Shown here: one piece after another, positions 2,955-58,980 of the stretch | Layout of the letters: each line of letters opens with the position of its first letter | Numbering within the stretch: the stretch's first letter is position 1 | Origin: a virus | Lineage: Duplodnaviria; Heunggongvirae; Uroviricota; Caudoviricetes | Direction: 5' to 3' (one strand) | Length of the DNA stretch: 64,000 nucleotides | IMG/VR virus record: IMGVR_UViG_3300024259_001450 | Span: 124,076 to 188,075 of that record | The notes under the pieces: model-generated | What the model was told of the DNA's origin: nothing | What the model saw: the letters and a program-made list of their open reading frames with translations, nothing else | Database searches by the model: none | Position numbers and translations under genes: made by a program

Positions 2955-4091
2955 ATGTCTGAAAAAACTAATAGATTGTTTTGGCTGAGTGGTAGTTACT
3001 ACATGCGTCAGAATATCGTTGCTAAGATCAAAGAAAGTGTAAACGACTATGCTTTGAGTATATACGACGAATCTGATTCGGCAGAATATATCTATTCACA
3101 AATTACAGAGCCTTCTTTATTCGATGACAATAAGATCATCATCTTAAAAGCAATTCCTGATTTCGGCAAATCTCATGCTGCGAACAAAAAGAGATTATTG
3201 GCGATGTTTAATGAAATTCCTGAGAATTGTTTTGTCATTATTGATGGGGTGTCTACAAAGAAAACACCAGCATTATGCAAAGCAGTAAAGAAGATAGGAA
3301 AGGTAAAAGAGTTCGATCAGTTTCTTAAGCCTCGTGACGCATCGAATTGGGTTGGCAATCGTTTCAAAGAACAAGACAAAGAAATATCTAGTGAAGATAT
3401 CATGTTTATAGTTGAGTCTATCGGTCAAGAGGACAAGGGAGTAAATGTAGATAAGATGTACGTCTGTGTCAAGAAGATATGTGATTATCTTGGCAAAAGC
3501 AAGAAGGTGACTAAGGAATCTGTTATTAAGGCTTCTGACAAGTACAATAGATTGTTTGTGCAGGGGATTTTCAACGCATTGGATGATAAGGATTTTGTGG
3601 CGTGTTCTTCGATGTTGTATTCAGCCTGTTGTACTGATAAGATCAAGAATGTAGCTGAAACCATTTTCGCTTTATGTTCTTGGAGATTTAGGATGTTGTG
3701 GTTTGTCAAAGAATCGATAGCAAGAAAAAAGACACTAAATGATATAACGACTGAGATTCAAAATGAATTGCCGAAATTGACCAGAAAAGGCAAAGGCCCA
3801 TTTATGAATTTCACACCTGATTTGACTGCGGACGGTAAAACAAAATCGCCTTATTCTAGTTTCGTATTAAATGCATGTGTAAATGGATTTTATGGGAATA
3901 CGCCATCTATCCGAAAATATAAGAGAGAAGATATATTCAAAGCTATAAAAACTCTTGAAGAATGTATGATTAAGATGAGATTCAGCCAAGACGACGCAGA
4001 AATACTGTTGCTTTTAGATAATTTTTTCATGACATTAACAAAGAGTCCTTTTAGCTATAATGAATTGGCTCAATTGAGGAGAATGGATTGA
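2955..4091 (+). CDS. Possible clamp-loader delta (HolA)-like protein
   Basis: Lies immediately downstream of dnaN and is about 380 aa, as HolA is. Similarity is weak and context-based. Confidence 0.3.
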   Translation: MSEKTNRLFWLSGSYYMRQNIVAKIKESVNDYALSIYDESDSAEYIYSQITEPSLFDDNKIIILKAIPDFGKSHAANKKRLLAMFNEIPENCFVIIDGVSTKKTPALCKAVKKIGKVKEFDQFLKPRDASNWVGNRFKEQDKEISSEDIMFIVESIGQEDKGVNVDKMYVCVKKICDYLGKSKKVTKESVIKASDKYNRLFVQGIFNALDDKDFVACSSMLYSACCTDKIKNVAETIFALCSWRFRMLWFVKESIARKKTLNDITTEIQNELPKLTRKGKGPFMNFTPDLTADGKTKSPYSSFVLNACVNGFYGNTPSIRKYKREDIFKAIKTLEECMIKMRFSQDDAEILLLLDNFFMTLTKSPFSYNELAQLRRMD

Positions 4092-4572: not shown

Positions 4573-5714
4573 AAGACTATTATTCAATTTTAGGTGTTGA
4601 GAAAGATGCTGAAGGAGACGAAATTAAGTCGGCCTATAGAAAATTGGCTAAACAATATCATCCTGATGTATCAAAAGAAGATGGCTCAGAAGAAAAATTC
4701 AAAGAAATTACAGAGGCATACGAAGTCTTATCTGATTCTGATAAAAGACGCAATTATGACCTTGGTGATGCCAACGGAGTAAATCTTAATGATATATTCA
4801 TGAATTTCCATCGAGGAGCATATGGTGGAGGTACAATGGATTTTCCACAGCAGGGTAATCATATCAAATTCCCTATGCCTCTTACTTATAAAGAGATAAT
4901 CACTAAGGATTTAATCAAAGATATTACAGTCACTCGTCAAGAGGAATGTGCCGTCTGTAAAGAGCATCCTGGGCTTAAGGAAGGGGCTTCTAAGCACGAA
5001 TGTAATGATTGCAGGGGTCAAGGTCGAATAAGGGAAGTATCTACGCATAAGGACGGTATGCAGATGATACGAGAGACTATTTGTTATAAATGTAATGGGA
5101 CTGGTAAATATATCGATAAAGATGATGTGTGTCCTGAATGTAAAGGAACCGCAAGTGTCGAAAAGGAACGCACGTTCTCTGTAAAGATACCAAGAGGTAT
5201 CCATCAAAATCAAGTTATCGCTATGCAAGGCGAGGGAAATTGCGGAAAAAATGGTGGACCGAATGGGGATATCTATGTTATAGCTGTAGAGCAACCTCAT
5301 GAAATATTTGAAAGATATGGAGACGATGTTTTCCTTAAATTGCCAATCACAATATCTCAAGCGGTATTAGGCAGCGAAGTAGAATTGCCAACTGTCTATG
5401 ATAATATTATCAAGGTAGAAATACCAGCCGGATCAGTTGCTGGCACTATGGTTAAAAAATCTGATTATGGTATGCCAATACGAGGACATGCAACAGCAAA
5501 AGGCAATATGGTAGTGGGTTTAAATATCATTGTCCCAGAAAATTTGACGGATAAAGAAAAAGCTTTATTTGAAAAAATTAGAAATATAGAGGACAAAAAG
5601 GCCGATAAAAGAATAGAAAAGATTGAAGAATACATTGAGAGGGTTAGAAATGTTCAAGAAAAGAATAGTAACGGGACAAGTGAAAGAGACGAGGCCGAAG
5701 TCGGAGTTTCCTAA
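4569..5714 (+). CDS. dnaJ: DnaJ co-chaperone (J domain plus CXXCXGXG zinc finger)
   Basis: N-terminal J domain with HPD (DYYSILGV…KQYHPDV). Gly-rich linker. Four CxxCxGxG repeats (CAVCKEHPG, CNDCRGQG, CYKCNGTG, CPECKGTA). C-terminal domains. Confidence 0.85.
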   Translation: MKDYYSILGVEKDAEGDEIKSAYRKLAKQYHPDVSKEDGSEEKFKEITEAYEVLSDSDKRRNYDLGDANGVNLNDIFMNFHRGAYGGGTMDFPQQGNHIKFPMPLTYKEIITKDLIKDITVTRQEECAVCKEHPGLKEGASKHECNDCRGQGRIREVSTHKDGMQMIRETICYKCNGTGKYIDKDDVCPECKGTASVEKERTFSVKIPRGIHQNQVIAMQGEGNCGKNGGPNGDIYVIAVEQPHEIFERYGDDVFLKLPITISQAVLGSEVELPTVYDNIIKVEIPAGSVAGTMVKKSDYGMPIRGHATAKGNMVVGLNIIVPENLTDKEKALFEKIRNIEDKKADKRIEKIEEYIERVRNVQEKNSNGTSERDEAEVGVS

Positions 5715-6080: not shown

Positions 6081-7000
6081 TTTTCAAAAGATTCTTTATC
6101 TATAAATCTTACACATTTTTTGATAATTTTCTTGATTAACGCTGTGTCAGTAATGACTACTTTTGTCCCTTTTTTATCTGGTTTGAATTTGGTACGGAAG
6201 TCAGTTCCTTTATAACCAGATAAAACAGTAAACCCAGGATCACCAGCTATTTCTATCCATTCTCCGTCCCAAGAAAGCGGCACAAATGATTTACCCACAG
6301 TATATCCATCAATTATATCTTTTGGGATGATCGTCAATGTGACATTTACCTTTTTTACCGTATCCAATGATGGAGTTTTTTCTTTTATGGTGTTATCAAG
6401 TTTAGTTGCCTTGTTGTACAGACCGGGCATCATGTATTTCAGATGGAATAAGAATAACGGAACTATGTCTCTCTGATATCCTCTAATTTCTTCGAATGTA
6501 AGTTGGGTACGTGGGACGAATTTTGTTAGTGTCACAATGGCTTCTGGTGTAAAATGTTCTTTTTTCAAAAACGGAGTACCGCTTACCATAAAACCTGAGT
6601 GGCTAAGAAATGGTACTTCTTTACATACAGTTGCATAGGAATATGGGAAAAAGATGTAATCTCCGATTTCTGAAACATGTTTTTTGCCATATGCATTTGG
6701 CATTTTCGGACCGGCATTTACTTCGTCTCGTGCATCTGATAAAAAATTATAATATGATTTTGCTCTTCGACTTGGCCCTCTTAAATCTGAAGAACTAATA
6801 TATGGGCATTTCGCTCCAAATACTAGGATCAAAGGACGGATGCATTCGCCCCTGGCCAAATATGGACATTTTTTCGTTGAGTCTAATGAACAAAATGATT
6901 TCTTGAGAGTCGGATGCCATTTATTATCTTTGTTAGCCTCTGCTAGATAGACTCCTATTAACTTCTTTTCTGCCATCAATTTCTCCTTATGAATTAACAC
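6077..7000 (-). CDS. Hypothetical protein (307 aa)
   Basis: Long uninterrupted ORF with no recognisable motif. Confidence 0.4.
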   Translation of the reverse strand: MLIHKEKLMAEKKLIGVYLAEANKDNKWHPTLKKSFCSLDSTKKCPYLARGECIRPLILVFGAKCPYISSSDLRGPSRRAKSYYNFLSDARDEVNAGPKMPNAYGKKHVSEIGDYIFFPYSYATVCKEVPFLSHSGFMVSGTPFLKKEHFTPEAIVTLTKFVPRTQLTFEEIRGYQRDIVPLFLFHLKYMMPGLYNKATKLDNTIKEKTPSLDTVKKVNVTLTIIPKDIIDGYTVGKSFVPLSWDGEWIEIAGDPGFTVLSGYKGTDFRTKFKPDKKGTKVVITDTALIKKIIKKCVRFIDKESFEN

Positions 7001-7475
7001 CTAGTTCTTGGAACAGATTAATTGCTTCTTGTTTGTCATCAAGTAATGCTTGCATATATGCGGTGAAACCGCTGTTATCTTTTACGGTTGTATCTATTCC
7101 TTTTTTAACCAATTCTTTTATTTTCTCCAAATCGCACACATAAACTGCTCTATGCAACTCTGTCCTACCAAATTCATGACGTTCTTCTGTTGTGCCTGTT
7201 TGTTCAAAAACATACTCACCAGTAGATGCTTCAACTCCGCGATAGTATTCCATCCAATTACTGACACGATCTTCTCGTGACAATGGTTTTTGTTTTGTAT
7301 AATCCGGGGGTTCAGGTTCTTTGAATAGAATATCTTTTTCATACATATTTTTGATTACAGAAAGGATGCGTTCTTTCTTTTCTGGTGAATATTCTTTTTC
7401 GTCCAAATTATTACTGATTAATTCCAAAAAGTCTTTTAGTTCTACCAAGATTGTTTCCTTATTTAGTTTCAACAA
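6987..7475 (-). CDS. Ankyrin-repeat-containing protein
   Basis: C-terminal ankyrin-like repeat (TELHRAVYVCDLEKIKELVKKGIDTTVKDNSGFTAYMQALL). Confidence 0.4.
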   Translation of the reverse strand: MLKLNKETILVELKDFLELISNNLDEKEYSPEKKERILSVIKNMYEKDILFKEPEPPDYTKQKPLSREDRVSNWMEYYRGVEASTGEYVFEQTGTTEERHEFGRTELHRAVYVCDLEKIKELVKKGIDTTVKDNSGFTAYMQALLDDKQEAINLFQELGVNS

Positions 7476-7862: not shown

Positions 7863-8075
7863 TTATTTCAATTTGGGTAAAGAAGTCAAACCATAGCCTT
7901 TCATAACTTCACCATCAATAATGACCATATTCTCTAATTCATATCCTTTATATTTTTTTTTGATTTCTTCTGCTGTTAAATGAAGGATGTGTGGTGATGG
8001 AATGTCCCAATGTTCATCATACTCGAATCCGCCTTCAATTACGATGTATGTTTTATCGCTTTTCTTTTTCTTCAT
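7863..8075 (-). CDS. Hypothetical protein
   Basis: 70-aa ORF downstream of rsr on the same strand. Confidence 0.3.
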   Translation of the reverse strand: MKKKKSDKTYIVIEGGFEYDEHWDIPSPHILHLTAEEIKKKYKGYELENMVIIDGEVMKGYGLTSLPKLK

Positions 8076-8193
8076 GCCTTTGTCCTCTGTACATTATAGA
8101 GCGTAGATAAAAAAAGAAAAGGCAACATAGTCACCTTTTCTTTTGCATGAATATAACGACTGACAACACTTGTCGTATTTATCTATCGGAATA

Positions 8194-9843
8194 TTAGAGG
8201 TTTCCTTGAACAAAGTCGCTAATGATTCGTGGGCAGTTGGCATCGAACCCGGCAATGTCGACCATTCCGCCATCATTCGGGTCTGCAACCGTGAACTCAG
8301 TAGCAGTCATTCCGATCACGATCAACTTAGAACCAATACCCATAGCCTGACGATAGTTCCGCAACGCCTTAGCAGGCTTAACATCACCACGCCAAGTTTC
8401 GTTATCAGTGATAACAACGAAAGCGTCTACAGGAACCTTATTCTTCTGTGCCCAAATCATAGGCAACGCACAGTCGGTTCCACCGAAACTCAAGTTTCTA
8501 GTCTTGTTAAGAGCGCTGTTCAAACTGTCTCTTGCAGTAATCTTCAAATCTACTAGTTCATGACAGAAACCACGAATCTCATAGTTCTTTTCAGAACGAG
8601 CAATCGTCATAGCCATTGCTGCCGCACCTTCGCTTGGTAGCAAGTTAGGAATTCCACAGATGTCACTCCAAGTCATAGAACCACTTACATCAATACCAAG
8701 CATGTAGTTAGCACCAGTAGATTCAACATAGTTGAAACTCTTGTAGAAAGCATCTTCCAAAGCGTCCTTAACTTGAGAGATAGGATTCCAAGACAAATTA
8801 CCACGGAAACCATGTCCCTTTTCGTAGGTACGCAAAGCCGCAAGCAGTGCGATAGGATGCACACGAGCAGTCTTTAGATTTTCCTCGTCTGTAAGTCTGT
8901 CAACCACTAAACGAGTCTTGTCACCCATAGAAACCAGAGTACCAGCAGCGGTCAAAGGACCAAGACTACGAATCGTAGCAGTCATAGGCATATGATTTAC
9001 TAGTTCATCCAATACTGCCTTTTCCTTCATGAACTGCGTAGGAATACTTTCACGAGAAAGCTTATATTCCTTGATGATGCTAATAGCGATCTTAGCATTT
9101 TCTGCACCCTTAATCAATTCGTGACCATAGATGTAACGCAAGTCCTCATAATCGTTTAGGTTGTCGAAACTCTTATCAAACCCTTCAACTCCCTTTGCGG
9201 CATAACAGAAAGCCAAGTCGTGCGCCTTCGTTGCAGGAGTTACATGAGCCTTACGCAGAATATCACGGTGACTCCAAGGCAATTCGCCTTCTACGGAACG
9301 AGACTGGTACTTGCAAATCTGATAAGCAACAGAACTCGCGCTCTTGTCGTTATACCAATTTGCGAAAGCCTTACGCAGACCACGGCCCCAACCAGTACCT
9401 ACCTTCATTTCCTTAACGAAGGAAGCGAAAGTGAACAAATGAGTACCGATACGACATACAGCATTCAGATGTGCCAAAGCATACTTACGAACAGCTTCAT
9501 TTTCATGAACTGCTGCAAGAGCCAATACAAAAATAGCAGTGTCGTTCTTGGCGATACGACCTTCGTGACTCATCTTAACAACTTCGTCAATAACTGCCAC
9601 ATGATCCTTACCTAAGAAGCTGATAAGGAAATCGGCGTTATTACGAGAAAGCTTACGCTCCGTAACGTAGTAACTTCCGTTTGTAGTTCCAAGTGTCAGG
9701 AACCTACGAAGACGATTGATATCACTTACTTGGTAGACGAATCCACCAGCGTTATTCTTTACCTGATTCGGTTCGTCCTGAACCATTTGATGTGCGTTCC
9801 CTCTAACTGACTTTCCAGAAATTTGAGCGATGTTCTTAGCCAT
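8194..9843 (-). CDS. rsr: Ro60/Rsr-family protein (TROVE plus vWA domain)
   Basis: N-terminal TROVE signature strongly resembles Ro60 (GGFVYQVSDINRLRRFLTLGTTNGSYY versus human [27 protein letters not shown]). C-terminal vWA/MIDAS motif (GIDVSGSMTW). Confidence 0.85.
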   Translation of the reverse strand: MAKNIAQISGKSVRGNAHQMVQDEPNQVKNNAGGFVYQVSDINRLRRFLTLGTTNGSYYVTERKLSRNNADFLISFLGKDHVAVIDEVVKMSHEGRIAKNDTAIFVLALAAVHENEAVRKYALAHLNAVCRIGTHLFTFASFVKEMKVGTGWGRGLRKAFANWYNDKSASSVAYQICKYQSRSVEGELPWSHRDILRKAHVTPATKAHDLAFCYAAKGVEGFDKSFDNLNDYEDLRYIYGHELIKGAENAKIAISIIKEYKLSRESIPTQFMKEKAVLDELVNHMPMTATIRSLGPLTAAGTLVSMGDKTRLVVDRLTDEENLKTARVHPIALLAALRTYEKGHGFRGNLSWNPISQVKDALEDAFYKSFNYVESTGANYMLGIDVSGSMTWSDICGIPNLLPSEGAAAMAMTIARSEKNYEIRGFCHELVDLKITARDSLNSALNKTRNLSFGGTDCALPMIWAQKNKVPVDAFVVITDNETWRGDVKPAKALRNYRQAMGIGSKLIVIGMTATEFTVADPNDGGMVDIAGFDANCPRIISDFVQGNL

Positions 9844-10170
9844 GATTTTCTCCCTTTCTTTTTCTCAGACCCATTCGGGTCAATTCTCACAATTGTATTA
9901 TAGCAAGAGATAGTGGAAATTTTCGTGATGTGGCAAAAAAAAATACGACCAGAAGTTCAGGGCCGTTAATACACTTTTTATCCAATAAATCAGATCAGGT
10001 TGTCACCTGTTCCCAACTTTCATTTTAATTTGCCTACAGTTGTGGTCAGCAATTTTATAATTAATAATATAGCCTTTAGGGGTTTCTGGTCGCATATATT
10101 GTAACAGGCAAGGATTGCTATAGGCGTTTTACGTGTGCTACCGTTGCACCACAGCCATAAAAGGGTAAAA

Positions 10171-10243
10171 CTTGAAATATGGCCGCTAGGAGTCGAACCC
10201 AGTTCTCGGATTTATGATATCGTTAACCTATTGGCTTCAGCCC
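10171..10243 (+). ncRNA. Candidate Y-RNA-like structured ncRNA, unit 1
   Basis: Shared 3' motif GTTAACCTATTGGCTTCAGCCC. A 5' segment (TATGGCCGCTAGG) is complementary to the 3' arm. Sits in the intergenic region next to rsr. Strand uncertain. Confidence 0.4.
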
Positions 10244-10290
10244 GTATACATGCTCGTTATGAAGTTTTCAAATAATATAATAAAAATAGG

Positions 10291-10364
10291 CAAGTTGTTG
10301 TAAATAGGATTGGTGGTGCGGCCCGCGAAGGCCGCGATCAGAGTTAACCTATAAACTTCAGCCC
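10291..10364 (+). ncRNA. Candidate Y-RNA-like structured ncRNA, unit 2
   Basis: 5' arm AAGTTGTTGTAAATAGG is complementary to 3' arm CCTATAAACTTCAG. Internal GC hairpin GCGGCC-CGCGAA-GGCCGC. TATAAT-like box about 12 nt upstream. Confidence 0.4.
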
Positions 10365-10383
10365 ATATTTAATTCTAATTTGG

Positions 10384-10442
10384 TCGAGTAGTTGTCGATA
10401 GCAATCGTTATCAGGTTAGGTTAAGCTATCAACTTCAGACCA
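10384..10442 (+). ncRNA. Candidate Y-RNA-like structured ncRNA, unit 3
   Basis: 5' arm AGTTGTCGATAGC pairs with 3' arm GCTATCAACTTC. Shares GTTAAGCTATCAACTTCAGACC with the other units. Confidence 0.4.
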
Positions 10443-10590
10443 TTAATGCTGGGGGTTGGATTTGCACCAACTTTTGCTATCTTTTCGAAAGACCTTCGGG
10501 GGGACGAACGTATCCGAAGTAGCAAATACGCCTTTCAGCGATTTCCCAGCGGATAAGACTATATAAAACTGTATTTTATTTTCAATAATG

Positions 10591-10658
10591 AAGTCAAGCT
10601 GTTGTCAATACCGTTTTTGGCCTTATTTAATGTAAGTTAAGGTATCAAACTTCAGACC
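10591..10658 (+). ncRNA. Candidate Y-RNA-like structured ncRNA, unit 4
   Basis: 5' arm AAGCTGTTGTCAATACC is complementary to 3' arm GGTATCAAACTTCAG. Same 3' consensus as the other units. Confidence 0.4.
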
Positions 10659-10711
10659 TCAGTATATTATAGCGCCAAGTGCGTTTTTTTAAGTAGCCGG
10701 TGAAAATTTTT

Positions 10712-11608
10712 TTATGAACGGTTGACATAGTTAAATCTAGACATAAACTTTTCCTTCGCTTTATATGTCTCTCTGCCAAAAAAGTCTATCGAGTTATCTG
10801 CTAAATCAATTTCTAGATTTTCCCATCTATTTTTGAGATAATTCCTTATCCATTGAAACAAAGGTTTTTCACTATTAGTATGTCCAAGTTCAATAATATG
10901 GTCAAATCTATGAGGAGTATTATCGATATTTGATGTTAATTCTCCTGTAATAAAAACATCAGCTTTAAATTCGTTCACACGCAGTGGAGTATTCTCCCAA
11001 CCAGCATGAGTCAAGGCCAATCCTCCCATTCCAGAACAATACAGAACGTCGTGAATTGGTTTATTGTTTAGGTCTTTACTCCATATGCAACCGTCTACTT
11101 TAAAACCTCTTCTTTCCAATAAATCGGATAACTCGTTAAACAACAAGGGTTTAGGCAAAAAACCATGGTAATATATTCCAGCAATTTGTTTGGTATGAGT
11201 AAATCCAAATCTTTTGGCGAAGAAGCCATTATGTCCTTTGGGTTCGATATCCATTGCGATATGCATAATAACTTGTGGCACATCTACTAGGAAATCGTGA
11301 TGGCCCACCAAGAGATCGTAATCGTTTTCAATGAAGTAATTCCTTACTTGGCCAGTAGGTGTGGTAGCTAATAGAATTTTTTTAACTATTTTATTAGGAG
11401 TATCACTAAATAATCCCCATCTGTCACAAAAAAGTTTCCACTCAGGCGACTCTTCTGGATATATCTTTGCCAAGTAATTAGTAATCTCTATTTGAGAGGG
11501 TAATCCCTCTTTTGGAGTTCTTACAAGGGGATTCCCCTTATATTGAGTAGAGTGTGGACTTTGTGGAAATCTCATATTCTGTGTCATCATTGTTCTTCCT
11601 TCAAACAA
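10712..11608 (-). CDS. Nif3/YbgI-family-like dinuclear metal-centre protein (tentative)
   Basis: Two His-rich motifs spaced as in the Nif3 family (LLVGHHDF… near the N-terminus; HIIELGHTNSE near the C-terminus). Confidence 0.4.
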   Translation of the reverse strand: MFEGRTMMTQNMRFPQSPHSTQYKGNPLVRTPKEGLPSQIEITNYLAKIYPEESPEWKLFCDRWGLFSDTPNKIVKKILLATTPTGQVRNYFIENDYDLLVGHHDFLVDVPQVIMHIAMDIEPKGHNGFFAKRFGFTHTKQIAGIYYHGFLPKPLLFNELSDLLERRGFKVDGCIWSKDLNNKPIHDVLYCSGMGGLALTHAGWENTPLRVNEFKADVFITGELTSNIDNTPHRFDHIIELGHTNSEKPLFQWIRNYLKNRWENLEIDLADNSIDFFGRETYKAKEKFMSRFNYVNRS

Positions 11609-11692
11609 TTATAGAAAAATTTTTATTTGTAAAAAGGAAAAACTTATAAAAACTAAAATAAAATAAATGATCTCCTTTCTCTCTTTCTGCTA

Positions 11693-11727
11693 GGGCGGCA
11701 ACTGTTTGAGTTGTCGCCCTTTTATAT
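11693..11727 (+). terminator. Rho-independent-terminator-like hairpin
   Basis: GGGCGGCAAC-tgtttga-GTTGTCGCCC (10-bp stem, one mismatch) followed by TTTTATAT. Confidence 0.35.
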
Positions 11728-13779: not shown

Positions 13780-13935
13780 ATTATGGCTAAATTCAATTTG
13801 AAACAGTTAAAAAAAGATATAAAGAAACAGGCTTTAAAGAGAAGAATTGATCAAAGGAAGCCAACTAAAAAGACAGCAAATGCATTCCCTTCTCTGCGTA
13901 AGAAACGAGGCGGATGTGGTTGCGGAGGTTAAAAA

Positions 13936-16900
13936 TGGGAGACGCACAAGCAAAATCTGTTCACGAAAAGATAAATGAAATTCTATGTGATACTTCATTT
14001 AAATATGATCAGTCTGCCTGCTTGTGCGATTTACTTAATTCATTTCGTTATTTATCATATGAATTGATTCAAAATCCTCAGATGCTATTAGAGGATTTGA
14101 TTCAGAACAAAATAGAATCGAACAAGGGATATTACCCATTGGATGTGGTAGAATTGCGGTTGGCGTTGTCACAAGACAGAATTCCGTCTATTAAGCCAAT
14201 GCTATTTTCTTATAAGTTTACACAAAAGTATTTACAAGATTACCCCTTGCTTCTATGTATAGATATTTCTAAAGATGATTATAGCTGCTTTGGCGGATTG
14301 GCTATAGGAGAATATTATTCTTCATTGCATAACTCTTTAAAAAGAATCTATATTTCATCTAAATTGAGCAAGAAAACAATCGAAGATGTACAAAACATTT
14401 TAAAGGAAGAAGATATTAAGTGCGATATGATAGTTGATACTAAAGTTCCAGGTTTGTCTAATCCCAAATTGGCTGCTGCTTTAAATGCGTATATAGTCAA
14501 TATATCTCAGCTAGGCATTGAAGACGAAACTATACACGCCGACACTGAAGAGGAAGCAGTTGCCGATGCTATTAACCGTAAATGGGATCGTGTACAACAA
14601 GCTAAAAATCTTAGATACAGAGAACATAAGTATAGACCGCAAACATGGCTCAAACTTCGTAATACGGAATTTTGGAGCAATATGGTTAGACATGCTCATA
14701 CTGTCAAATCAATTAAAATGGCTCAATTGAATGATAATATCCAACTGTCAGAAATAGAACAAAAGATATTTAATTTCATAAAGATGGTTATAGCAGATTT
14801 GAAACAAAAAGGAATGGATGCAGAATGTAGAGTTGCTGGCGGATGGGTCCGTGATAAGCTAATGGGATATGAGAGTGACGATATTGATATCGCTACCAAT
14901 ATATCTGGTATACAGTTGGCAAACTATATGTCGAAATATGCTCGTGATCATAATATAGACGGCGTGGGGAATGCCCATGAAGTCAGTCTTGAAAAACTAG
15001 TAGATAAAGATGGTGATGAAGGCGAAGAGACATTAAAAGTCGGCGGCATAAATATCTTTGGGCAAAAGATTGAATTTGTGCCAATGAGAAAAGAAATATA
15101 TGATTCAGAAAGCAGAAAGCCAACTATAGTTTTAACTAACAATGTAGAAGACGATGTACTCCGTCGTGATTTGACAATCAACTCATTGTATTACAATATA
15201 TTGACTGGCAAAGTAGAAGATTATGTGGGCGGAAAAGAAGATTTGGAAAAGATGGTGTTGAGGACACCAGCGGGTGCATTAGAAGGATACGATGGGACAT
15301 TGAAAACGTATATTGAAGACCCTCTTAGGATGTTGAGAGTATTGCGTTTCTATACTCGTTATCCTAACGCAAAAATAGATAGTAACATTATCAAGGTTAT
15401 GGAGCAATCTAAAGACCCTAATTCTGAATTCTCGAAAGCGTATAAGGCGAAAGTTGCACCAAGTAGGTCTTCTAAAGAACTCAGAAAAATGATGCAATCT
15501 AAAGACCCAATTCCAGCAAGTAGACTGTTATTGGATTCTAACTTCTATAAATTAGTATTCAATGTAAGTCCTGAATGGTATAACATGGACATGGATCAAC
15601 AAAGTCCTTTTCATAATCTTACATTGAAAGGGCATACTCTTCGCGTAATGGAAGAGTTAAAAAACATAGCAAACGAAATCGGATTAGAAGACAACAGTGA
15701 TGAAAGAGGATTGGTTCTTTTGGCTGGTCTGTTGCACGATTTTGGAAAAATGTCACCTGATATTCGTGCCCCTAAGATTGATAAGAAAACTGGTAAGCCA
15801 GTTACATTCCAAAGGGGAGAAGAAACTGTAGAACGTATGCGTTATATACGTCACGAAGTGGAATCAGCTACATTCTTGTCTCAGACACTCAAAGACATGA
15901 ATTTCAATGAAGAGGAACGAGATTTTGTTGAATTGATTGTTAGAGGTCATATGACACCTACTAATTTGAAGAAATTTGTAGAAATGTATGAAGAGAAATC
16001 AAAATCAGGTAATTCTAGAAAAGCAAAAGATACGATGAATCGTCATTTGGGACAATTTTTACAGAGTGTAGACCAAAGGCTTGATACATTGATGATGGCT
16101 ATAGAAAATGTTAAAAAAGATACCAGAATCAGTGATGAAGATAAAGCCAATAGAATAAAAGACTTAGAAAAATGGATTACACCATATGGTCGTTTGTGGC
16201 AATGGATTATGTATCATCATCGTGCTGATTCAATGGGCAAAAGTGATATGACTGAGCGTGAAATAGAGGAAACTAAGGCGATTAATCAGAAACTTATAAA
16301 TGTAGTAAAAAACTATAGAGATACGCTGGGAACGCTTACCAGAACGCCTGTTGGAGATAAGTTTGGTAATGTAATTCGAGAAATGATGCAAGAACTTGTA
16401 CCAGACTTGCCAAGGGACGCTATGTTGAGCGATTCAAGGATTAAGCGTCCAACGCACTATATCAAGTTTATTATGATGAAAGTGATTGAACAGCAGCAGT
16501 TGGGCTATATAAAGACGCTAGACGATGCTAAAGAATTTATTCGTAAAAGTGGTCGTAACTGGGGTAATATATGGAAACAGCAAATACGGAGACAGCAAAT
16601 GTCAGAATATCATGAAACGAATCTTGCTAATAATTGGTACAAAATGCAAAAGAAAGCGGATGCTTCATCTGCGTCTGAACCATCAGGGTTTGATGGCTAC
16701 GAAGGGCAAAGCCCATTAGAAAGAGTCGATATGCCATATACAATGGAAGATAGAAGTTCTCCTCTTCCTTTCCAGGTTGGAGACAAGGTGAGAGTAAGGC
16801 AAGTCGGAATGATTTATGAGCAAATAGAAGGTCGTGTTGTAGACGCTCAGGAGAATTTGATTGTTATAGATTGGCAGACTGGTAGGTACGCAGGAAAAAC

Positions 16901-16952
16901 TGAGAAGATGACTATGGATAAGGCAACTATAAAGTTGGATGTTATCAAATGA
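13936..16952 (+). CDS. cca: CCA-adding tRNA nucleotidyltransferase (class II head plus HD domain) with long N- and C-terminal extensions
   Basis: Pol-beta-like head motif AGGWVRDKLMGYESDDIDIAT with RRDLTINSLYYN. HD motif LLAGLLHDFGK. GGAGG RBS 8 nt upstream of ATG at 13936. Confidence 0.8.
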
Positions 16953-23818: not shown

Positions 23819-24727
23819 ATGAGTAAGCTGATTGTATTACGTGGTCTGCCAGGTTCTGGCAAATCGACCAAGGCGAAAGAAATTGTACAGCAAGACCATA
23901 ACGCTGTACGAGTCAATAAAGATGCGCTTAGAGATATGCTTTTCTTCATCTCAAAAAGTGATCATTCGGAATGGTCAAATAAGAGAGAAAATATTGTTAA
24001 AAAGGCACAACTTGAACTTGTGAGAACTTTACTTGCCAAACATAAAACGGTTATTATAGATGATACTAATTTAAATCAGAACACCGTCCGAAGATGGGAA
24101 GATGTAGCATTGCAAGGCAATCACAAATTCCAAATTATTACCATTGATACTGATGTAGAGGAATGCATCAAGCGTGATGCTCTGCGTGATATTACTGTTG
24201 GTGAAGAAGTTATCCGAAAATTCGCTTCTGTTCATCATATTGGTAATAACAAAGCAGACGACCAGAAGGCTTTTGACTGTCCTGATGATAAGAAAATTGT
24301 CATTTATGACTTAGACGGTACACTTGCTGATGTTGAACATAGATTGCATTTCATTAATGGTGGAGTTCGAAAAGATTGGGCTGGATTTTTCGACGGAATG
24401 AGTAAAGACCCTCTTAGAGAAGGGGTTGCCAGTCTAATTACAGATTGCTATAAAGATCACATAACTATTATAGTAACAGGGCGTCCTTCAAATTACCGCA
24501 CTAAAACAGAGAAATGGCTTAAAAAACATAACATACCATATAAGGCTCTGTATATGAGGAAAGCTGGTGATTTTAGACCTGATTATATTGTCAAACAAGA
24601 AATCCTCGATAAATTCTTGCCAAAAGACAAAATTGAGATGATCGTGGACGATAGGAAATGTGTTTTGGATATGTGGAGGTCGAATAGATTACCAGTAATC
24701 GATGTCGGCGATGGCACAGATTTTTAA
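23819..24727 (+). CDS. Polynucleotide kinase-phosphatase (T4 Pnk-like)
   Basis: N-terminal P-loop kinase LRGLPGSGKST. C-terminal HAD phosphatase motif VIYDLDGTLAD…IVDDR. Confidence 0.8.
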   Translation: MSKLIVLRGLPGSGKSTKAKEIVQQDHNAVRVNKDALRDMLFFISKSDHSEWSNKRENIVKKAQLELVRTLLAKHKTVIIDDTNLNQNTVRRWEDVALQGNHKFQIITIDTDVEECIKRDALRDITVGEEVIRKFASVHHIGNNKADDQKAFDCPDDKKIVIYDLDGTLADVEHRLHFINGGVRKDWAGFFDGMSKDPLREGVASLITDCYKDHITIIVTGRPSNYRTKTEKWLKKHNIPYKALYMRKAGDFRPDYIVKQEILDKFLPKDKIEMIVDDRKCVLDMWRSNRLPVIDVGDGTDF

Positions 24728-50677: not shown

Positions 50678-52696
50678 TTGAAAGGGCTAATGATGGAAGA
50701 TATGTTTGATGATGCAGTCGCTGTAGCAGAAGATTCTCAAGCAGATAGAATCAAAGAGCTTGAAAAACTCATTTTCGCAGCAAGGAAACCTTATTATAAT
50801 GGCAATCCTATTATGGAGGACTCCGAATACGATGCCCTTGAAGATGAATTGCGTGAATTAGCACCAGATTCTAAGGTCTTTGACGAAGTTGGAGCAGATG
50901 ACGGTTCTGATGATTCCGTTAAATTCTCCAAGGAAAAGCACCAAGTTCCTATGGGAAGTCAAAGCAAGTGTGCCAATGAAGATGAATTCAGAGATTGGGA
51001 CAGACTTCATAATCTCGAAAATGAATCTGTTTTGGCGACATATAAGCTGGATGGAGCATCGTTGAATGTCGTGTATGAAGATGGTAAACTCGCAAAGGCT
51101 GTGACTCGCGGCAATGGTGTCGTAGGTCGCAATATCACTTCTAATGCCAAGAATTTCATCGGTATCCCTGCAACCATTAGTATGAAAGAACGTTTGGACA
51201 TTCGCGGTGAGTGCATTCTTTCTACTGAAAATTGGAAAGCAATCGATCCTAAAGCCTTGAATCCTCGCAACTTAGGAACAGGCATTATGAGCAGAGAAGA
51301 TGGAAAAGACTCTGACAAACTAAGATTTATTGCATTTGATGTGGTTTGTGAGAAGAAAGAATTCAAAACAGAACATGAAAAGATGAAATTCCTTAGACAT
51401 ATAGGAATTGAAGTTACATGGTATAAGATTTGTAAGAATGTTGATGAGGCTATCGAATTCTATCAAAAAATAGCCAAAGGGCGAACGAATTGTGCAGTAA
51501 GATTGCATGATTACCATGTATGGATTGATGGCATTGTAATGAAATTGAATAGTGTCGCAACCCAAGAGAAATTGGGGATTAGCAGTGGTCGTCCTAAGTG
51601 GTCTACTGCTTTGAAGTTCCCCCCACCTGGGGCGATTACATACATTAAAGACGTTGAATTGGGCGTGGGACATACTGGTGCAATTACGCCTGTGGCGTGG
51701 ATAGAACCAGTACAAATCGGTGGAACCACAGTTAAAAGAGCCACGCTGAATAACTGGGATTTCATCAATATGATGGACGTAGCCATTGGCGATAAGGTAA
51801 AAATCGTCAAGGGTGGTGATATCATTCCTAAATTGGTATCAGTTATAGATAGACCCAAAAACCGCACAGTCATTCCTGCTCCGACAGAGTGCCCTGAATG
51901 CGGCGGTCCTGTCGGAAGAGATACAAATGTCACTGGCGATTTGGGAGCAGTTATTCGCTGTACAAATACTGATTGTGATGCTCAAGCTGTCGGTAAGTTC
52001 AAGAGAATGGTTAAGAGGCTGGAAATTCTCGAAATCGGTGAGAGTATTATCGTTGGAATGTATGAAGCTGGCATTATTAAAACAATTGCTGATATGTTTA
52101 GAATCGAAAACCATCGTACTGAAATTTCTAAGCTAGAAGTAGGAAATGGTGTATGGGGTGAAAGTAGAACTGATAAAATGATTGATGAAGTCAATAAGAA
52201 AAAGAAAATGACTTTGGATGTCTTTTTGGGAATGCTTGGAATCAAGGGTCTTGGACAACGAAGGGCTAAGATTGTAATGGATAACGACGTAGCCCCTCAG
52301 ACGCTTGATGAGTGGCGTTCTGGTCAGTTGGTTAAAGTCGCTGACAAGGTTGGTGTTCCGAATATCGCTGTTAATATCCAAAAGGCGATTGATGCGAATA
52401 GCAACTTGATTGATGACCTAGTAACAGTGATCACAATTACAGAGACTAAACAAAAGCAAGACGGCGTTCTGTCTGGCAAGTCGTTTGTTTTGACTGGCAG
52501 TTTTAGCCGCAAGAAAGCATTGATTCACGCTGATATCGAGAACGCTGGTGGAGAAATCCATAAGAGTGTTAGTAAAAATATTGATTATCTTGTGCAAGCA
52601 GACAAGAACAGCACAAGTACAAAAACTCAAAAAGCAGAGAAGTTAGGAATCGAAGTTATTGATGAAGATGATCTAGCGGAGATAATTAATGGCTAA
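50678..52696 (+). CDS. ligA: NAD-dependent DNA ligase (LigA)
   Basis: Adenylation motif KLDGASLNVVYEDGKL. OB and Zn finger (CPECGGPV…C…C). HhH region. C-terminal BRCT (GKSFVLTGSFS…). Confidence 0.9.
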   Translation: MKGLMMEDMFDDAVAVAEDSQADRIKELEKLIFAARKPYYNGNPIMEDSEYDALEDELRELAPDSKVFDEVGADDGSDDSVKFSKEKHQVPMGSQSKCANEDEFRDWDRLHNLENESVLATYKLDGASLNVVYEDGKLAKAVTRGNGVVGRNITSNAKNFIGIPATISMKERLDIRGECILSTENWKAIDPKALNPRNLGTGIMSREDGKDSDKLRFIAFDVVCEKKEFKTEHEKMKFLRHIGIEVTWYKICKNVDEAIEFYQKIAKGRTNCAVRLHDYHVWIDGIVMKLNSVATQEKLGISSGRPKWSTALKFPPPGAITYIKDVELGVGHTGAITPVAWIEPVQIGGTTVKRATLNNWDFINMMDVAIGDKVKIVKGGDIIPKLVSVIDRPKNRTVIPAPTECPECGGPVGRDTNVTGDLGAVIRCTNTDCDAQAVGKFKRMVKRLEILEIGESIIVGMYEAGIIKTIADMFRIENHRTEISKLEVGNGVWGESRTDKMIDEVNKKKKMTLDVFLGMLGIKGLGQRRAKIVMDNDVAPQTLDEWRSGQLVKVADKVGVPNIAVNIQKAIDANSNLIDDLVTVITITETKQKQDGVLSGKSFVLTGSFSRKKALIHADIENAGGEIHKSVSKNIDYLVQADKNSTSTKTQKAEKLGIEVIDEDDLAEIING

Positions 52697-58864: not shown

Positions 58865-58907
58865 TTTAAAAACAAAACTTCTACGCTATAATACATTAGA
58901 GGCAAAT

Positions 58908-58980
58908 GGGCCAGTAGCTTAATTGGGAAAGCACTACACTTGCAATGTGGAGGATATGGGTTCGATTCCCATCTGTGTCC
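58908..58980 (+). tRNA. tRNA-like gene, anticodon UGC (Ala) by canonical numbering; acceptor stem imperfect
   Basis: D-stem GCTT/AAGC with GG in the loop. Anticodon stem CTACA/TGTGG, loop cTTGCaa. T-arm ATGGG-TTCGATT-CCCAT. Acceptor GGGCCAG/CTGTGTC pairs at 5 of 7 positions (3:70 G·G, 4:69 C·T). TATAAT 17 nt upstream. Confidence 0.45.

What the first reader, a model, noticed from the sequence alone, without database searches (positions are those of the whole stretch)
9941..10660. Cluster of four or more paralogous Y-RNA-like structured elements beside a phage-encoded Ro60/Rsr gene
The largest non-coding gap in the window (868 bp) abuts the rsr start. It contains at least four units (10171-10243, 10291-10364, 10384-10442, 10591-10658). 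All share the 3' consensus GTTAA(c/g)(c/g)TAT-n-AACTTCAG(C/A)CC. In each unit a 5' segment (…AAGTTGTTG…ATAGG or GTTGTCGATAGC) is complementary to that 3' arm. The termini therefore pair around a variable, hairpin-containing middle (for example GCGGCC-cgcgaa-GGCCGC). That is the general Y-RNA architecture: a long terminal stem with internal loops, bound by the Ro60 ring. Degenerate copies of both arms (AAGTTCAGGGCCGTTAAT at 9941; GTTGTCACC) suggest a fifth, decayed unit. Unit 1 also carries a tRNA T-arm-like GGTTCGACTCC on the opposite strand, reminiscent of the tRNA-like domain of bacterial YrlA. In bacteria, rsr is typically adjacent to its Y RNA. A multi-copy phage Y-RNA array would be new.
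Basis: partly seen in the sequence, partly recalled or inferred. Interest (0 to 1): 0.85.

Follow-up and report, generated by a model that had tools for sequence, protein, structure and literature searches.

The report
Four Y RNA genes upstream of rsr
The gap next to the Ro60 (rsr) gene of this probable large phage holds four real Y RNA genes, one of them a tRNA mimic, plus two other structured RNAs; such clusters turn out to be common next to rsr in phages and bacteria, so this is a good new example of a known system, not a new kind.

Summary
The 868-bp gap (9844-10711) contains four paralogous structured units. They lie on the minus strand, co-oriented with and upstream of rsr (8194-9843, TROVE + Ro60 vWA).

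Corrected units are D 10590-10661, C 10380-10444, B 10286-10367 and A 10104-10246. It is a YrlA-type tRNA mimic with a T arm, a closed acceptor-like stem and a D arm.

A covariance model built only from units beside other phages' rsr genes finds exactly these four in 64 kb (E 6.5e-8 to 3.8e-4) and nothing else. Across 137 units from 59 of the 86 loci searched (all but 6 IMG/VR viral contigs), 95% of cells pair, against 47% or less when partners are slid. All 137 lie on the rsr strand. Thirteen loci carry four or more units, and one carries eight. Sixty-four further hits in bacterial rsr loci are also all on the rsr strand.

A stand-alone tRNA-like element (10448-10551) sits between units D and C.

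Phage Y RNAs have been published (Chen 2014; Thermus phage phiLo 2025), so novelty is modest. This clade has a bulged U where other Y RNAs have C, and UUAAC where others have UUAUC.

The parts
8194..9843 (-). rsr, the Ro60 orthologue (549 aa)
   Evidence: Pfam vWA_Ro60 1.2e-63 and TROVE 1.3e-33. It is 40-58% identical to thousands of TROVE proteins and about 40% identical to 'Ro-like RNA binding protein' in 357 phage records.
9897..9905 (-). TGCTATAAT, a likely extended -10 promoter element for rsr
   Evidence: Exact match. It is conserved in L002 (ATGCTATAAT) and lies after the U-tract of the fifth element. Promoter function is inferred only.
9934..10095 (-). Fifth structured RNA, not a Y RNA. 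It has a 12-bp outer stem, an internal loop CCCCUAAAG / (C/A)UGAAC, a 4-bp inner stem, a variable interior and a run of nine U at the 3' end (9934-9942).
   Evidence: MFE fold. Conserved in L002, L003 and L004 with compensatory changes in 12 of 24 predicted pairs. No hit with Y-RNA model R3 up to E=10 and no Rfam hit.
10104..10246 (-). Y RNA unit A, a YrlA-type tRNA mimic: Ro-type terminal stem, T arm 10186-10202, closed acceptor-like stem 10152-10185, D arm 10134-10150
   Evidence: R3 27.2 bits, E 3.8e-4. The MFE fold gives exactly this architecture. RNAalifold on 9 long units from different loci predicts T, AS and D arms, with 21 of 27 pairs showing double changes. Weak tRNA-model match over the T arm.
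10286..10367 (-). Y RNA unit B, with a distal GC-rich hairpin GCGGCC-UUCG-CGGGCCGC
   Evidence: R3 43.7 bits, E 6.5e-8. Rfam RF01656 (sbRNA) 33 bits, E 1e-4. Fold z -2.1.
10380..10444 (-). Y RNA unit C, with a short open loop
   Evidence: R3 43.4 bits, E 7.4e-8. Rfam RF01656 29.3 bits, E 1e-3. Fold z -3.05.
10448..10551 (-). Stand-alone tRNA-like element: 6-bp acceptor-like stem, short D-like hairpin, long irregular arm in the anticodon position, T-arm-like GUUGG-UGCAAAU-CCAAC. It ends a few bases before unit C (10444).
   Evidence: Cloverleaf-like MFE, z -4.07, 0/200 shuffles as stable. The counterpart in L002 2725-2849 folds alike and has a compensatory G-C to A-U change in the acceptor stem. 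Not called by ARAGORN or the Rfam tRNA model.
10590..10661 (-). Y RNA unit D, with an A/U-rich loop
   Evidence: R3 35.8 bits, E 4.2e-6. The terminal stem appears in the MFE fold.
10666..10674 (-). CGCTATAAT, a likely -10 promoter element of the RNA cluster, a few bases upstream of unit D
   Evidence: A (T)GCTATAAT-type box precedes the first unit in L002, L003 and L004, and CTCTATAAT in L005. The same 9-mer sits 16 nt upstream of tRNA-Cys at 58884-58892. Function is inferred.

Best explanation
The gap encodes a cluster of four Y RNAs, the non-coding partners of the Ro60/Rsr ring, on the same strand as rsr and upstream of it.

Structure of each RNA. The 5' and 3' ends pair into the Ro-binding module, which consists of:
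- a 6-7 bp lower stem;
- one bulged nucleotide (U here, C in most relatives);
- a G.U/G-C pair and an A-U pair (GGKC-U-GAAG against CUYGMC);
- an asymmetric internal loop;
- a 5-6 bp upper stem, followed directly by UUAAC (UUAUC elsewhere).

The distal module differs in each RNA. Unit A carries a circularly permuted tRNA-like domain (T arm, closed acceptor-like stem, D arm), as in YrlA. Unit B carries a GC hairpin. Units C and D have open loops.

Inferred mechanism, by analogy with the characterised systems (D. radiodurans RYPER, Salmonella YrlA, Thermus phage phiLo). Phage Rsr binds the common stem. The different distal modules either gate its cavity or tether it to different partners, such as host PNPase or tRNA-recognising enzymes. 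This would redirect RNA decay or quality control during infection.

Inferred transcription. The spacers are too short to hold promoters (3 nt between the tRNA-like element and unit C, 12 nt between C and B). At least those genes must therefore be co-transcribed and cut apart. The whole cluster probably runs from the CGCTATAAT box at 10666-10674 to the U-tract at 9934-9942.

Shown: sequence family, structure, covariation, strand, and linkage to rsr.
Inferred: Rsr binding, effector tethering, and processing.
For: 1. rsr identity.
2. Independent model R3 finds exactly the four units in 64 kb.
3. Covariation on 121 distinct units: 95.2% of cells paired against 47% or less with slid partners; covariation score 0.762 against 0.144 or less; 12 of 14 pairs have double changes; 0/500 shuffles reach the observed score (the same picture with 48 units).
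4. Strand: 137/137 viral-set and 64/64 bacterial hits lie on the rsr strand, with 127 of the 137 upstream. Many G.U pairs (for example 100 of 121 at one pair) would be A.C mismatches on the other strand.
5. Sub-threshold Rfam hits of units B and C to RF01656, the nematode sbRNA family described as Y RNA homologues (PMC4726728). They align the GGNC-N-GAAG, UUAnC and CUUG(A/C)C motifs.
6. The tRNA-like domain of unit A appears in the MFE fold. RNAalifold on 9 loci supports it, with 21 of 27 pairs compensatory. The order T-AS-D matches the published YrlA description (PMC4201824).
7. Published criterion: YrlA candidates lie within 4 kb of rsr on the same strand. A phage Ro60 binds two upstream Y-like RNAs and forms complexes with host PNPase.
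Against: - There are no expression data, so transcript ends, stability and Rsr binding are untested.
- The published motif GNCGAAN0-1G is not met literally: the window units read GCUGAAG or UCUGAAG (G-N-C-U-G-A-A-G).
- No unit reaches any Rfam gathering score. RF02553 YrlA and RF00019 Y_RNA give no hit even at E<=10.
- MFE z-scores of units A and D are unremarkable (-0.25 and -0.96).
- Alignments A5 and A7 were fitted to the model, which inflates the percentage paired. The slid-partner control and the independent RNAalifold run argue this is not the whole effect.
- Phage origin of the window is likely but not proven. No structural genes were examined.
Confidence: 0.85

Rival explanations
1. 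The repeats are cis-acting elements of the rsr mRNA: a long structured leader carrying several Rsr-binding sites for autoregulation, not separate stable RNAs.
For: The array lies upstream of rsr on the same strand. There is only one clear TATAAT box at its far end, and the short spacers imply co-transcription.
Against: - A 12-bp stem followed by nine U (9934-9954), then a second TGCTATAAT box, separates the array from rsr.
- In 10 of 137 cases the units lie downstream of rsr. In Gordonia phage Sixama they sit among tRNA genes.
- Characterised relatives are free, stable RNAs (PMC4201824, PMC12135203).
Confidence: 0.06
2. The units are degenerate tRNA genes or tRNA-derived repeats from a decayed phage tRNA cluster, with no link to Rsr.
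For: Unit A has T- and D-arm-like hairpins, and a tRNA-like element lies between units D and C. Related loci are rich in tRNA genes.
Against: - Units B, C and D have no tRNA features.
- In unit A the T arm precedes the D arm (a circular permutation), and the ends form the Ro-type helix.
- ARAGORN and the Rfam tRNA model call nothing in the gap.
- The shared core is the Y-RNA stem with invariant G9 and UUAnC.
- Linkage to rsr holds at 59 loci of the viral set and in many bacterial loci.
Confidence: 0.03
3. The units are repeated promoter, terminator or REP-like palindromic DNA elements of the flanking genes.
For: The consensus scan found more promoter-like and terminator-like sites than in shuffles (8 vs 3.5, and 4 vs 0.8).
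Against: - Only one of the four terminator-like sites is followed by a good U-tract, and none coincides with a unit.
- The stems covary while specific unpaired nucleotides (the bulge, GAAG, UUAnC, ACA) stay fixed. That is the pattern of an RNA-protein interface, not of DNA palindromes.
- G.U pairs fix the strand.
Confidence: 0.02

Closest known systems
Bacterial and phage YrlA / Y RNA-like RNAs (Chen et al. 2014, RNA 20:1715, PMC4201824; Rfam RF02553)
   Same: They are encoded within 4 kb of rsr on the same strand. The 5'/3' stem carries a GNCGAA-type motif. One RNA per locus has a tRNA-like domain in the order T arm, closed acceptor-like stem, D arm. Further, shorter Y RNAs (YrlB-like) lie alongside. 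Reported in 22 phages.
   Different: No Rfam YrlA hit even at E<=10. The bulged position is U, not C. Both strands of the Ro helix are recognisable (CUYGMC on the 3' side), whereas Chen et al. state that only the 5' strand is recognisable in Salmonella and M. smegmatis. There are four Y RNAs plus two other RNAs in one cluster.
Thermus phage phiLo Ro60 with Yrl1 and Yrl2 (NAR 2025, PMC12135203)
   Same: A phage-encoded Ro60 with more than one Y-like RNA directly upstream. Those RNAs were identified by the CGAA motif and a stem-bulge-stem fold.
   Different: phiLo has two RNAs and here there are four. In phiLo, binding to Ro60 and to host PNPase was shown experimentally; here nothing was tested. 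The window motif is UGAA, not CGAA.
Metazoan Y RNAs and nematode stem-bulge RNAs (Rfam RF00019, RF01656; Kowalski & Krude 2015, PMC4726728)
   Same: A lower stem with a single bulged pyrimidine, then an upper stem, then a UUAUC-type pentanucleotide at the start of the loop. The 3' strand reads CUUGAC/CUUGCC. Units B and C give 33 and 29 bits to RF01656.
   Different: The scores are below the gathering score of 38, and there is no hit to RF00019. The window has UUAAC and a bulged U. The genes use bacterial-type promoters and have no pol III features. Homology versus convergence on the Ro60 surface is unresolved.
Deinococcus radiodurans rsr locus (Yrn1, Yrn2 and further small RNAs upstream of rsr)
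   Same: Several small RNAs are encoded upstream of rsr, and both strands of the Ro-binding helix are retained (PMC4201824).
   Different: According to that paper, Yrn1 has the T and D arms in the opposite order relative to the 5' end. Unit A follows the YrlA order.

Membership tests
Y RNA (Ro60/Rsr-binding ncRNA, general) | The 5' and 3' ends pair into a long stem that encloses a variable loop | tested here: met
   14 modelled pairs are 95.2% paired over 121 distinct units, with 12 pairs showing double changes; slid controls give 47% or less. The MFE folds of the four units show the stem.
Y RNA (Ro60/Rsr-binding ncRNA, general) | A conserved Ro-binding helix with a single bulged cytidine on the 5' strand | tested here: inconclusive
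   A single bulged nucleotide is present at the right place in all units. It is U in all 4 window units and in the 13 units from L002-L005, against C in 103 of 121 distinct units overall. Whether U supports binding is unknown.
Y RNA (Ro60/Rsr-binding ncRNA, general) | Physically bound and stabilised by Ro60/Rsr | not testable with these tools
   This needs EMSA or co-immunoprecipitation.
Y RNA (Ro60/Rsr-binding ncRNA, general) | In prokaryotes, encoded close to rsr on the same strand | tested here: met
   The units lie 261-818 bp upstream of the rsr start, on the same strand. All 137 viral-set and all 64 bacterial hits are on the rsr strand.
YrlA (Rfam RF02553; Chen et al. 2014), applied to unit A | GNCGAAN0-1G motif in the 5' strand | tested here: not met
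   Unit A reads GGGCUGAAG. The C before GAA is replaced by U.
YrlA (Rfam RF02553; Chen et al. 2014), applied to unit A | T-arm-like and D-arm-like hairpins with an acceptor-like stem-loop between them, T before D | tested here: met
   CUGGG-UUCGACU-CCUAG, then GCGGCCAUA/UAUGGCUGU, then GUGC-AACGGUA-GCAC, all in the MFE fold. RNAalifold on 9 loci supports all three with compensatory changes.
YrlA (Rfam RF02553; Chen et al. 2014), applied to unit A | Reaches the Rfam gathering score (69 bits) | tested here: not met
   No RF02553 match at E<=10 in 9750-10800. GC-rich relatives in L001 reach only 32-34 bits.
Nematode sbRNA (Rfam RF01656) | Reaches the gathering score (38 bits) | tested here: not met
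   Units B and C score 33.0 and 29.3 bits; units A and D are not reported. This is a resemblance of shared Y-RNA features, not membership.
Vertebrate Y RNA (Rfam RF00019) | A match to the covariance model | tested here: not met
   No match at E<=10.
tRNA, applied to the element at 10448-10551 | Detected by ARAGORN or by Rfam RF00005, with an anticodon arm | tested here: not met
   ARAGORN finds only tRNA-Cys at 58908. The Rfam tRNA model gives no hit there at E<=10. The anticodon arm is replaced by a 54-nt irregular hairpin.

The most novel reading that the evidence does not exclude
The rsr-linked RNA cluster may be a six-gene RNA operon. Under this reading its two non-Y members are previously undescribed partners or processing modules of the phage Ro60 RNP: the stand-alone tRNA-like RNA, and the CCCCUAAAG-loop RNA that closes the cluster.

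The short Y RNAs found here at phage and bacterial rsr loci would form a single, uncatalogued family. It retains the full metazoan/sbRNA signature: both strands of the bulged helix plus an essentially invariant UUAnC. That would argue that prokaryotic, viral and animal Y RNAs are truly homologous, and that UUAnC is part of an ancient Ro60-related interface.
Probability: 0.25. Interest if true: 0.6.

Novelty: new member of a known kind. Interest (0 to 1): 0.4.

Why it matters
The locus gives a clean, well-delimited set of RNA ligands for an uncultured phage Ro60: one tRNA mimic plus three short Y RNAs with different distal modules. This could be used to test how one Ro60 ring is matched with several adaptors.

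The side survey is probably more useful than the locus itself. It rests on 201 co-oriented hits in the viral-set and bacterial rsr loci searched. It shows that:
- multi-gene Y RNA clusters (up to eight genes) are the rule, not the exception;
- most of these genes are unannotated, even in cultured phages such as Streptomyces phage Yaboi;
- Rfam has no model that captures the short type;
- the UUAnC pentanucleotide, known from animal Y RNAs and sbRNAs, is the most invariant feature in these phage and bacterial units. A full-text search for UUAUC together with Y RNA returned no paper that applies it to prokaryotic or phage Y RNAs.

A phage Ro60-like protein has also been linked to countering a defence system (Bas63 gp130, PMC11482910), so these RNAs may matter for phage-host conflict.

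Tried and rejected
- Rfam at gathering thresholds over the whole window found only tRNA-Cys.
- An Rfam E-value scan of the gap gave no Y_RNA or YrlA hit. The sn1502, OrzO-P, sau-5949 and ssNA-helicase hits (E 0.65-8.5) are judged to be chance.
- ARAGORN called nothing in the gap.
- Megablast of 8000-11700 against 50,697 phage records found no match, so no annotated close relative exists.
- A look-up of the 100%-identical protein P0001 for its contig found nothing on record, so the sample and host remain unknown.
- Three review papers on bacterial Y RNAs (PMC10870794, PMC6047535, PMC6542706) and the supplementary tables of Chen 2014 are not held. I could not check how many Y RNAs per phage were listed there.
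- The plain MAFFT alignment of the units put the 3' arms out of register. This was solved by realigning to a covariance model.
- The idea that the fifth element is a decayed Y unit was rejected. It gets no R3 hit, and it is conserved as its own structure in four loci.
- I considered a kink-turn reading of the CCCCUAAAG / CUGAAC loop and dropped it, because the 9-nt strand does not fit the motif (my own reasoning, not tested).
- I considered running ARAGORN on a circularly permuted unit A and did not, because the construct would have to be partly artificial.

Full report
**What is there.**
The window has an 868-bp gap (9844-10711). On one side is a minus-strand gene at 8194-9843, a clear Ro60/Rsr orthologue (Pfam vWA_Ro60 1.2e-63, TROVE 1.3e-33). 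On the other is a minus-strand NIF3/DUF34 gene at 10712-11608.

Read on the minus strand, each copy begins GG(G/U)CUGAAG(U/C)(U/C)..AUA(G/C)(G/C)UUAAC. Each ends ..(stem complement)..ACAA..CU(U/C)G(A/C)C(U/C).

**Is it more than chance?**
I built a covariance model from 17 units found in the window and in four related loci. I then searched 81 other rsr loci from IMG/VR. From the 52 matches found there I built a third model, R3, which contains no sequence from the window or its close relatives. R3 finds exactly four places in the 64-kb window on both strands, and nothing else up to E=10:
- 10286-10367 (43.7 bits, E 6.5e-8)
- 10380-10444 (43.4 bits, E 7.4e-8)
- 10590-10661 (35.8 bits, E 4.2e-6)
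- 10104-10246 (27.2 bits, E 3.8e-4)

**Structure and covariation.**
Model R2 matched 137 units (121 distinct), and I counted pairs on their alignment.
- The 14 modelled pairs form standard pairs in 95.2% of cells. With the 3' partners slid by one to three columns the figure is 37-47%.
- The covariation score is 0.762, against 0.144 or less for the slid versions.
- Twelve pairs show changes on both sides.
- No shuffle out of 500 reaches the observed score. A smaller set gives the same picture.

These alignments were fitted to the model, which favours the structure. However, RNAalifold run on a plain MAFFT alignment of nine long units predicts the same stems.

The strand is fixed in two ways. 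First, one pair is G.U in 100 of 121 units, and several others are G.U in 26-35 units. These would be A.C mismatches on the other strand. Second, all 137 viral-set hits and all 64 hits in bacterial genomes lie on the rsr strand, with 127 of the 137 upstream of the gene.

**What kind of RNA.**
The common core consists of:
- a 6-7 bp lower stem;
- a single bulged pyrimidine;
- G.U/G-C and A-U pairs;
- an asymmetric internal loop;
- a 5-6 bp upper stem;
- then UUA(N)C.

[quoted passage not shown] Accordingly, units B and C give sub-threshold matches to Rfam RF01656, the nematode sbRNA family (33.0 and 29.3 bits, gathering score 38, E 1e-4 and 1e-3). Those alignments run through GGNC-N-GAAG, UUAnC and CUUG(A/C)C.

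In the 121 distinct units the most invariant positions are G9 (121/121) and the pentanucleotide: U 121, U 121, A 119, N, C 119. The bulge is C in 103 units and U in 18. Seventeen of those 18 are the units of the window and L002-L005. The window units, like those of L002-L004, also read UUAAC where most others have UUAUC; the two L005 units keep UUAUC.

**Unit A is a YrlA-type tRNA mimic.**
The partner of its 5' arm lies further on, at 10104-10125. The true unit is 143 nt (10104-10246).

Its minimum-energy fold contains the terminal stem and three further elements:
- a T arm (CUGGG-UUCGACU-CCUAG);
- a closed 8-9 bp acceptor-like stem (GCGGCCAUA / UAUGGCUGU);
- a D arm (GUGC-AACGGUA-GCAC).

The order T, acceptor-like stem, D is the one described for YrlA (PMC4201824). 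The L002 copy keeps all three helices through compensatory changes. RNAalifold on nine such long units from different loci predicts all of them, with 21 of 27 pairs showing a double change. Among units of 100 nt or more, 14 of 28 carry a GGUUCGAnUCC-like T loop, typically about 46 nt from the 5' end as here. Only 1 of 109 short units does.

Unit A nevertheless fails formal membership of Rfam YrlA (no hit at E<=10). It also does not carry the literal GNCGAA motif, reading GCUGAA.

**Two further RNAs in the gap.**
1. Between units D and C lies a 104-nt element (10448-10551, minus strand). It folds like a cloverleaf, with a 6-bp acceptor-like stem, a small D-like hairpin, a long irregular arm in place of the anticodon arm, and a T-arm-like GUUGG-UGCAAAU-CCAAC. 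Its z-score is -4.07, and none of 200 shuffles is as stable. L002 has the counterpart, with a compensatory change in the acceptor stem. L005 has a different stand-alone tRNA-like hairpin set in the same place. Neither ARAGORN nor the Rfam tRNA model accepts the window element.
2. It has a 12-bp outer stem, an internal loop CCCCUAAAG / (C/A)UGAAC, a 4-bp inner helix and a run of nine U. It is conserved in L002, L003 and L004, with compensatory changes in 12 of 24 predicted pairs. It is found only in these close relatives. It is not a Y RNA by model R3, and its function is unknown.

**Transcription (inferred).**
A CGCTATAAT box sits a few bases before unit D (10666-10674). A TGCTATAAT box sits between the U-tract and rsr (9897-9905). 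Boxes of the (T)GCTATAAT type precede the first unit in L002-L004, and CTCTATAAT does so in L005.

The tRNA-like element ends three bases before the modelled start of unit C. Units C and B are 12 bases apart, separated by a conserved A/U-rich spacer (UUAGAAUUAAAU). These genes cannot have their own promoters, so they must be cut out of a common precursor. The cluster as a whole probably runs from 10674 to 9934. Weaker internal promoter-like sites exist.

**How common is this?**
- Of the 86 loci searched with R2 (80 IMG/VR rsr loci from the alignment scan, one from an earlier scan, four metagenomic relatives and the window), 59 have at least one unit. Forty-one have two or more, 13 have four or more, and L061 has eight in a row.
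- Bacterial genomes show the same pattern, with up to four units per locus.
- Cultured phages have them too, unannotated. Streptomyces phage Yaboi has two just upstream of its Ro-like gene (57.8 and 33.6 bits). Gordonia phage Sixama has hits among its tRNA genes.

**What is already known.**
- Chen et al. 2014 reported YrlA-like RNAs within 4 kb of rsr on the same strand in 254 bacteria and 22 phages. [quoted passage not shown]
- A 2025 study showed that Thermus phage phiLo Ro60 binds two Y-like RNAs encoded upstream of it, and forms complexes with host PNPase.
- A Ro60-like protein of phage Bas63 was found to counter a defence gene.

This is a new member of a known kind. Its minor distinctive points are the U bulge, the UUAAC motif, four paralogues, and two extra RNAs.

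**Context.**
The window is about 36% G+C with strongly one-sided coding. It carries:
- T4-like polynucleotide kinase (23819-24727);
- a 1012-aa nucleotidyltransferase-HD protein (13914-16952);
- an NAD-dependent ligase (50678-52696);
- thymidylate synthase, ClpP, DnaJ and one tRNA.

There are many ORFs without matches, and only a faint hit to a 462-kb uncultured phage. A large phage is the likely source, but I examined no structural genes, so this is not proven.

**Verdict.**
The interpretation as Y RNAs is well supported (0.85). The mechanism is inferred from characterised relatives. Novelty is modest.

Noticed in passing
window 10448-10551 (minus); L002 2725-2849; L005 3879-3956: A stand-alone tRNA-like RNA lies inside the Y RNA cluster. 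It has an acceptor-like stem, a T-arm-like hairpin with loop UGCAAAU, and a long irregular arm in place of the anticodon arm. It ends about 3-5 nt before the next Y RNA. It could be a processing signal (RNase P/Z) or another RNP component. tRNA finders do not call it.
   Followed up: partly
window 9934-10095 (minus); L002 ~3195-3350; L003 ~3795-3915; L004 ~3805-3950: A conserved structured RNA closes the cluster. It has an invariant CCCCUAAAG opposite (C/A)UGAAC in an internal loop, enclosed by a covarying 12-bp stem and followed by a U-tract. It has no Rfam match, occurs only in the closest relatives, and its function is unknown.
   Followed up: partly
alignment A7 (137 units from 59 of the 86 loci searched, mostly IMG/VR), columns 26-30: The pentanucleotide UUA(N)C directly after the upper stem is the most invariant feature of the family (U 121/121, U 121/121, A 119/121, C 119/121). 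It matches the UUAUC motif described for vertebrate Y RNAs and nematode sbRNAs. A full-text search for UUAUC with Y RNA returned no paper on prokaryotic or phage Y RNAs. Model selection bias contributes to the invariance.
   Followed up: partly
L061 1633-2437 (IMGVR_UViG_3300027852_000034): Eight consecutive Y-RNA-type units lie upstream of one phage rsr gene. This is the largest array seen, and it mixes short units with units of about 105-128 nt.
   Followed up: no
L088 1864-1975 and 1986-2052 (Streptomyces phage Yaboi NC_048730.1, about 79967-80155): Two strong Y RNA matches (33.6 and 57.8 bits) lie in the unannotated space between tRNA-Asp and gene 129, just upstream of the Ro-like gene. 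Cultured actinophages carry unannotated Y RNA genes.
   Followed up: partly
L087 (Gordonia phage Sixama) 4993-5634: Y-RNA-model hits lie between annotated tRNA genes downstream of the Ro-like gene (for example 5145-5269, between tRNA-Arg and tRNA-Gln). This suggests Y RNAs are embedded in, and perhaps processed with, the phage tRNA array.
   Followed up: no
window 13914-16952 (+), 23819-24727 (+), 50678-52696 (+): An RNA repair or maturation toolkit lies near the rsr cluster. It comprises a 1012-aa protein with a poly(A) polymerase/CCA-adding head domain and an HD domain behind a ~300-aa unmatched N-terminus, a T4-type polynucleotide kinase, and an NAD-dependent ligase. The nucleotidyltransferase could act on the tRNA-like RNAs; M. 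smegmatis YrlA receives CCA.
   Followed up: no
window 58884-58892 and 58908-58980 (+): The only tRNA gene of the window (tRNA-Cys) is preceded at 16 nt by CGCTATAAT, the same 9-mer that precedes Y RNA unit D. This is consistent with a shared promoter type for small RNA genes.
   Followed up: no
window 10368-10379; L002, L003, L004 inter-unit spacers: The spacers between adjacent Y units are short (10-14 nt) and share the A/U-rich sequence UUA(G/A)AAUUAAAU. This could be a conserved endonuclease (RNase E-type) cleavage site.
   Followed up: no
window 10712-11608 (minus) and 6987-7475 (minus); L002 1685-2563 and 5200-5661: The gene order NIF3/DUF34, RNA cluster, rsr, ankyrin-repeat protein is conserved in the closest relative (81% identical Rsr). 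More distant relatives instead have a small acetyltransferase upstream (L003, L004).
   Followed up: no
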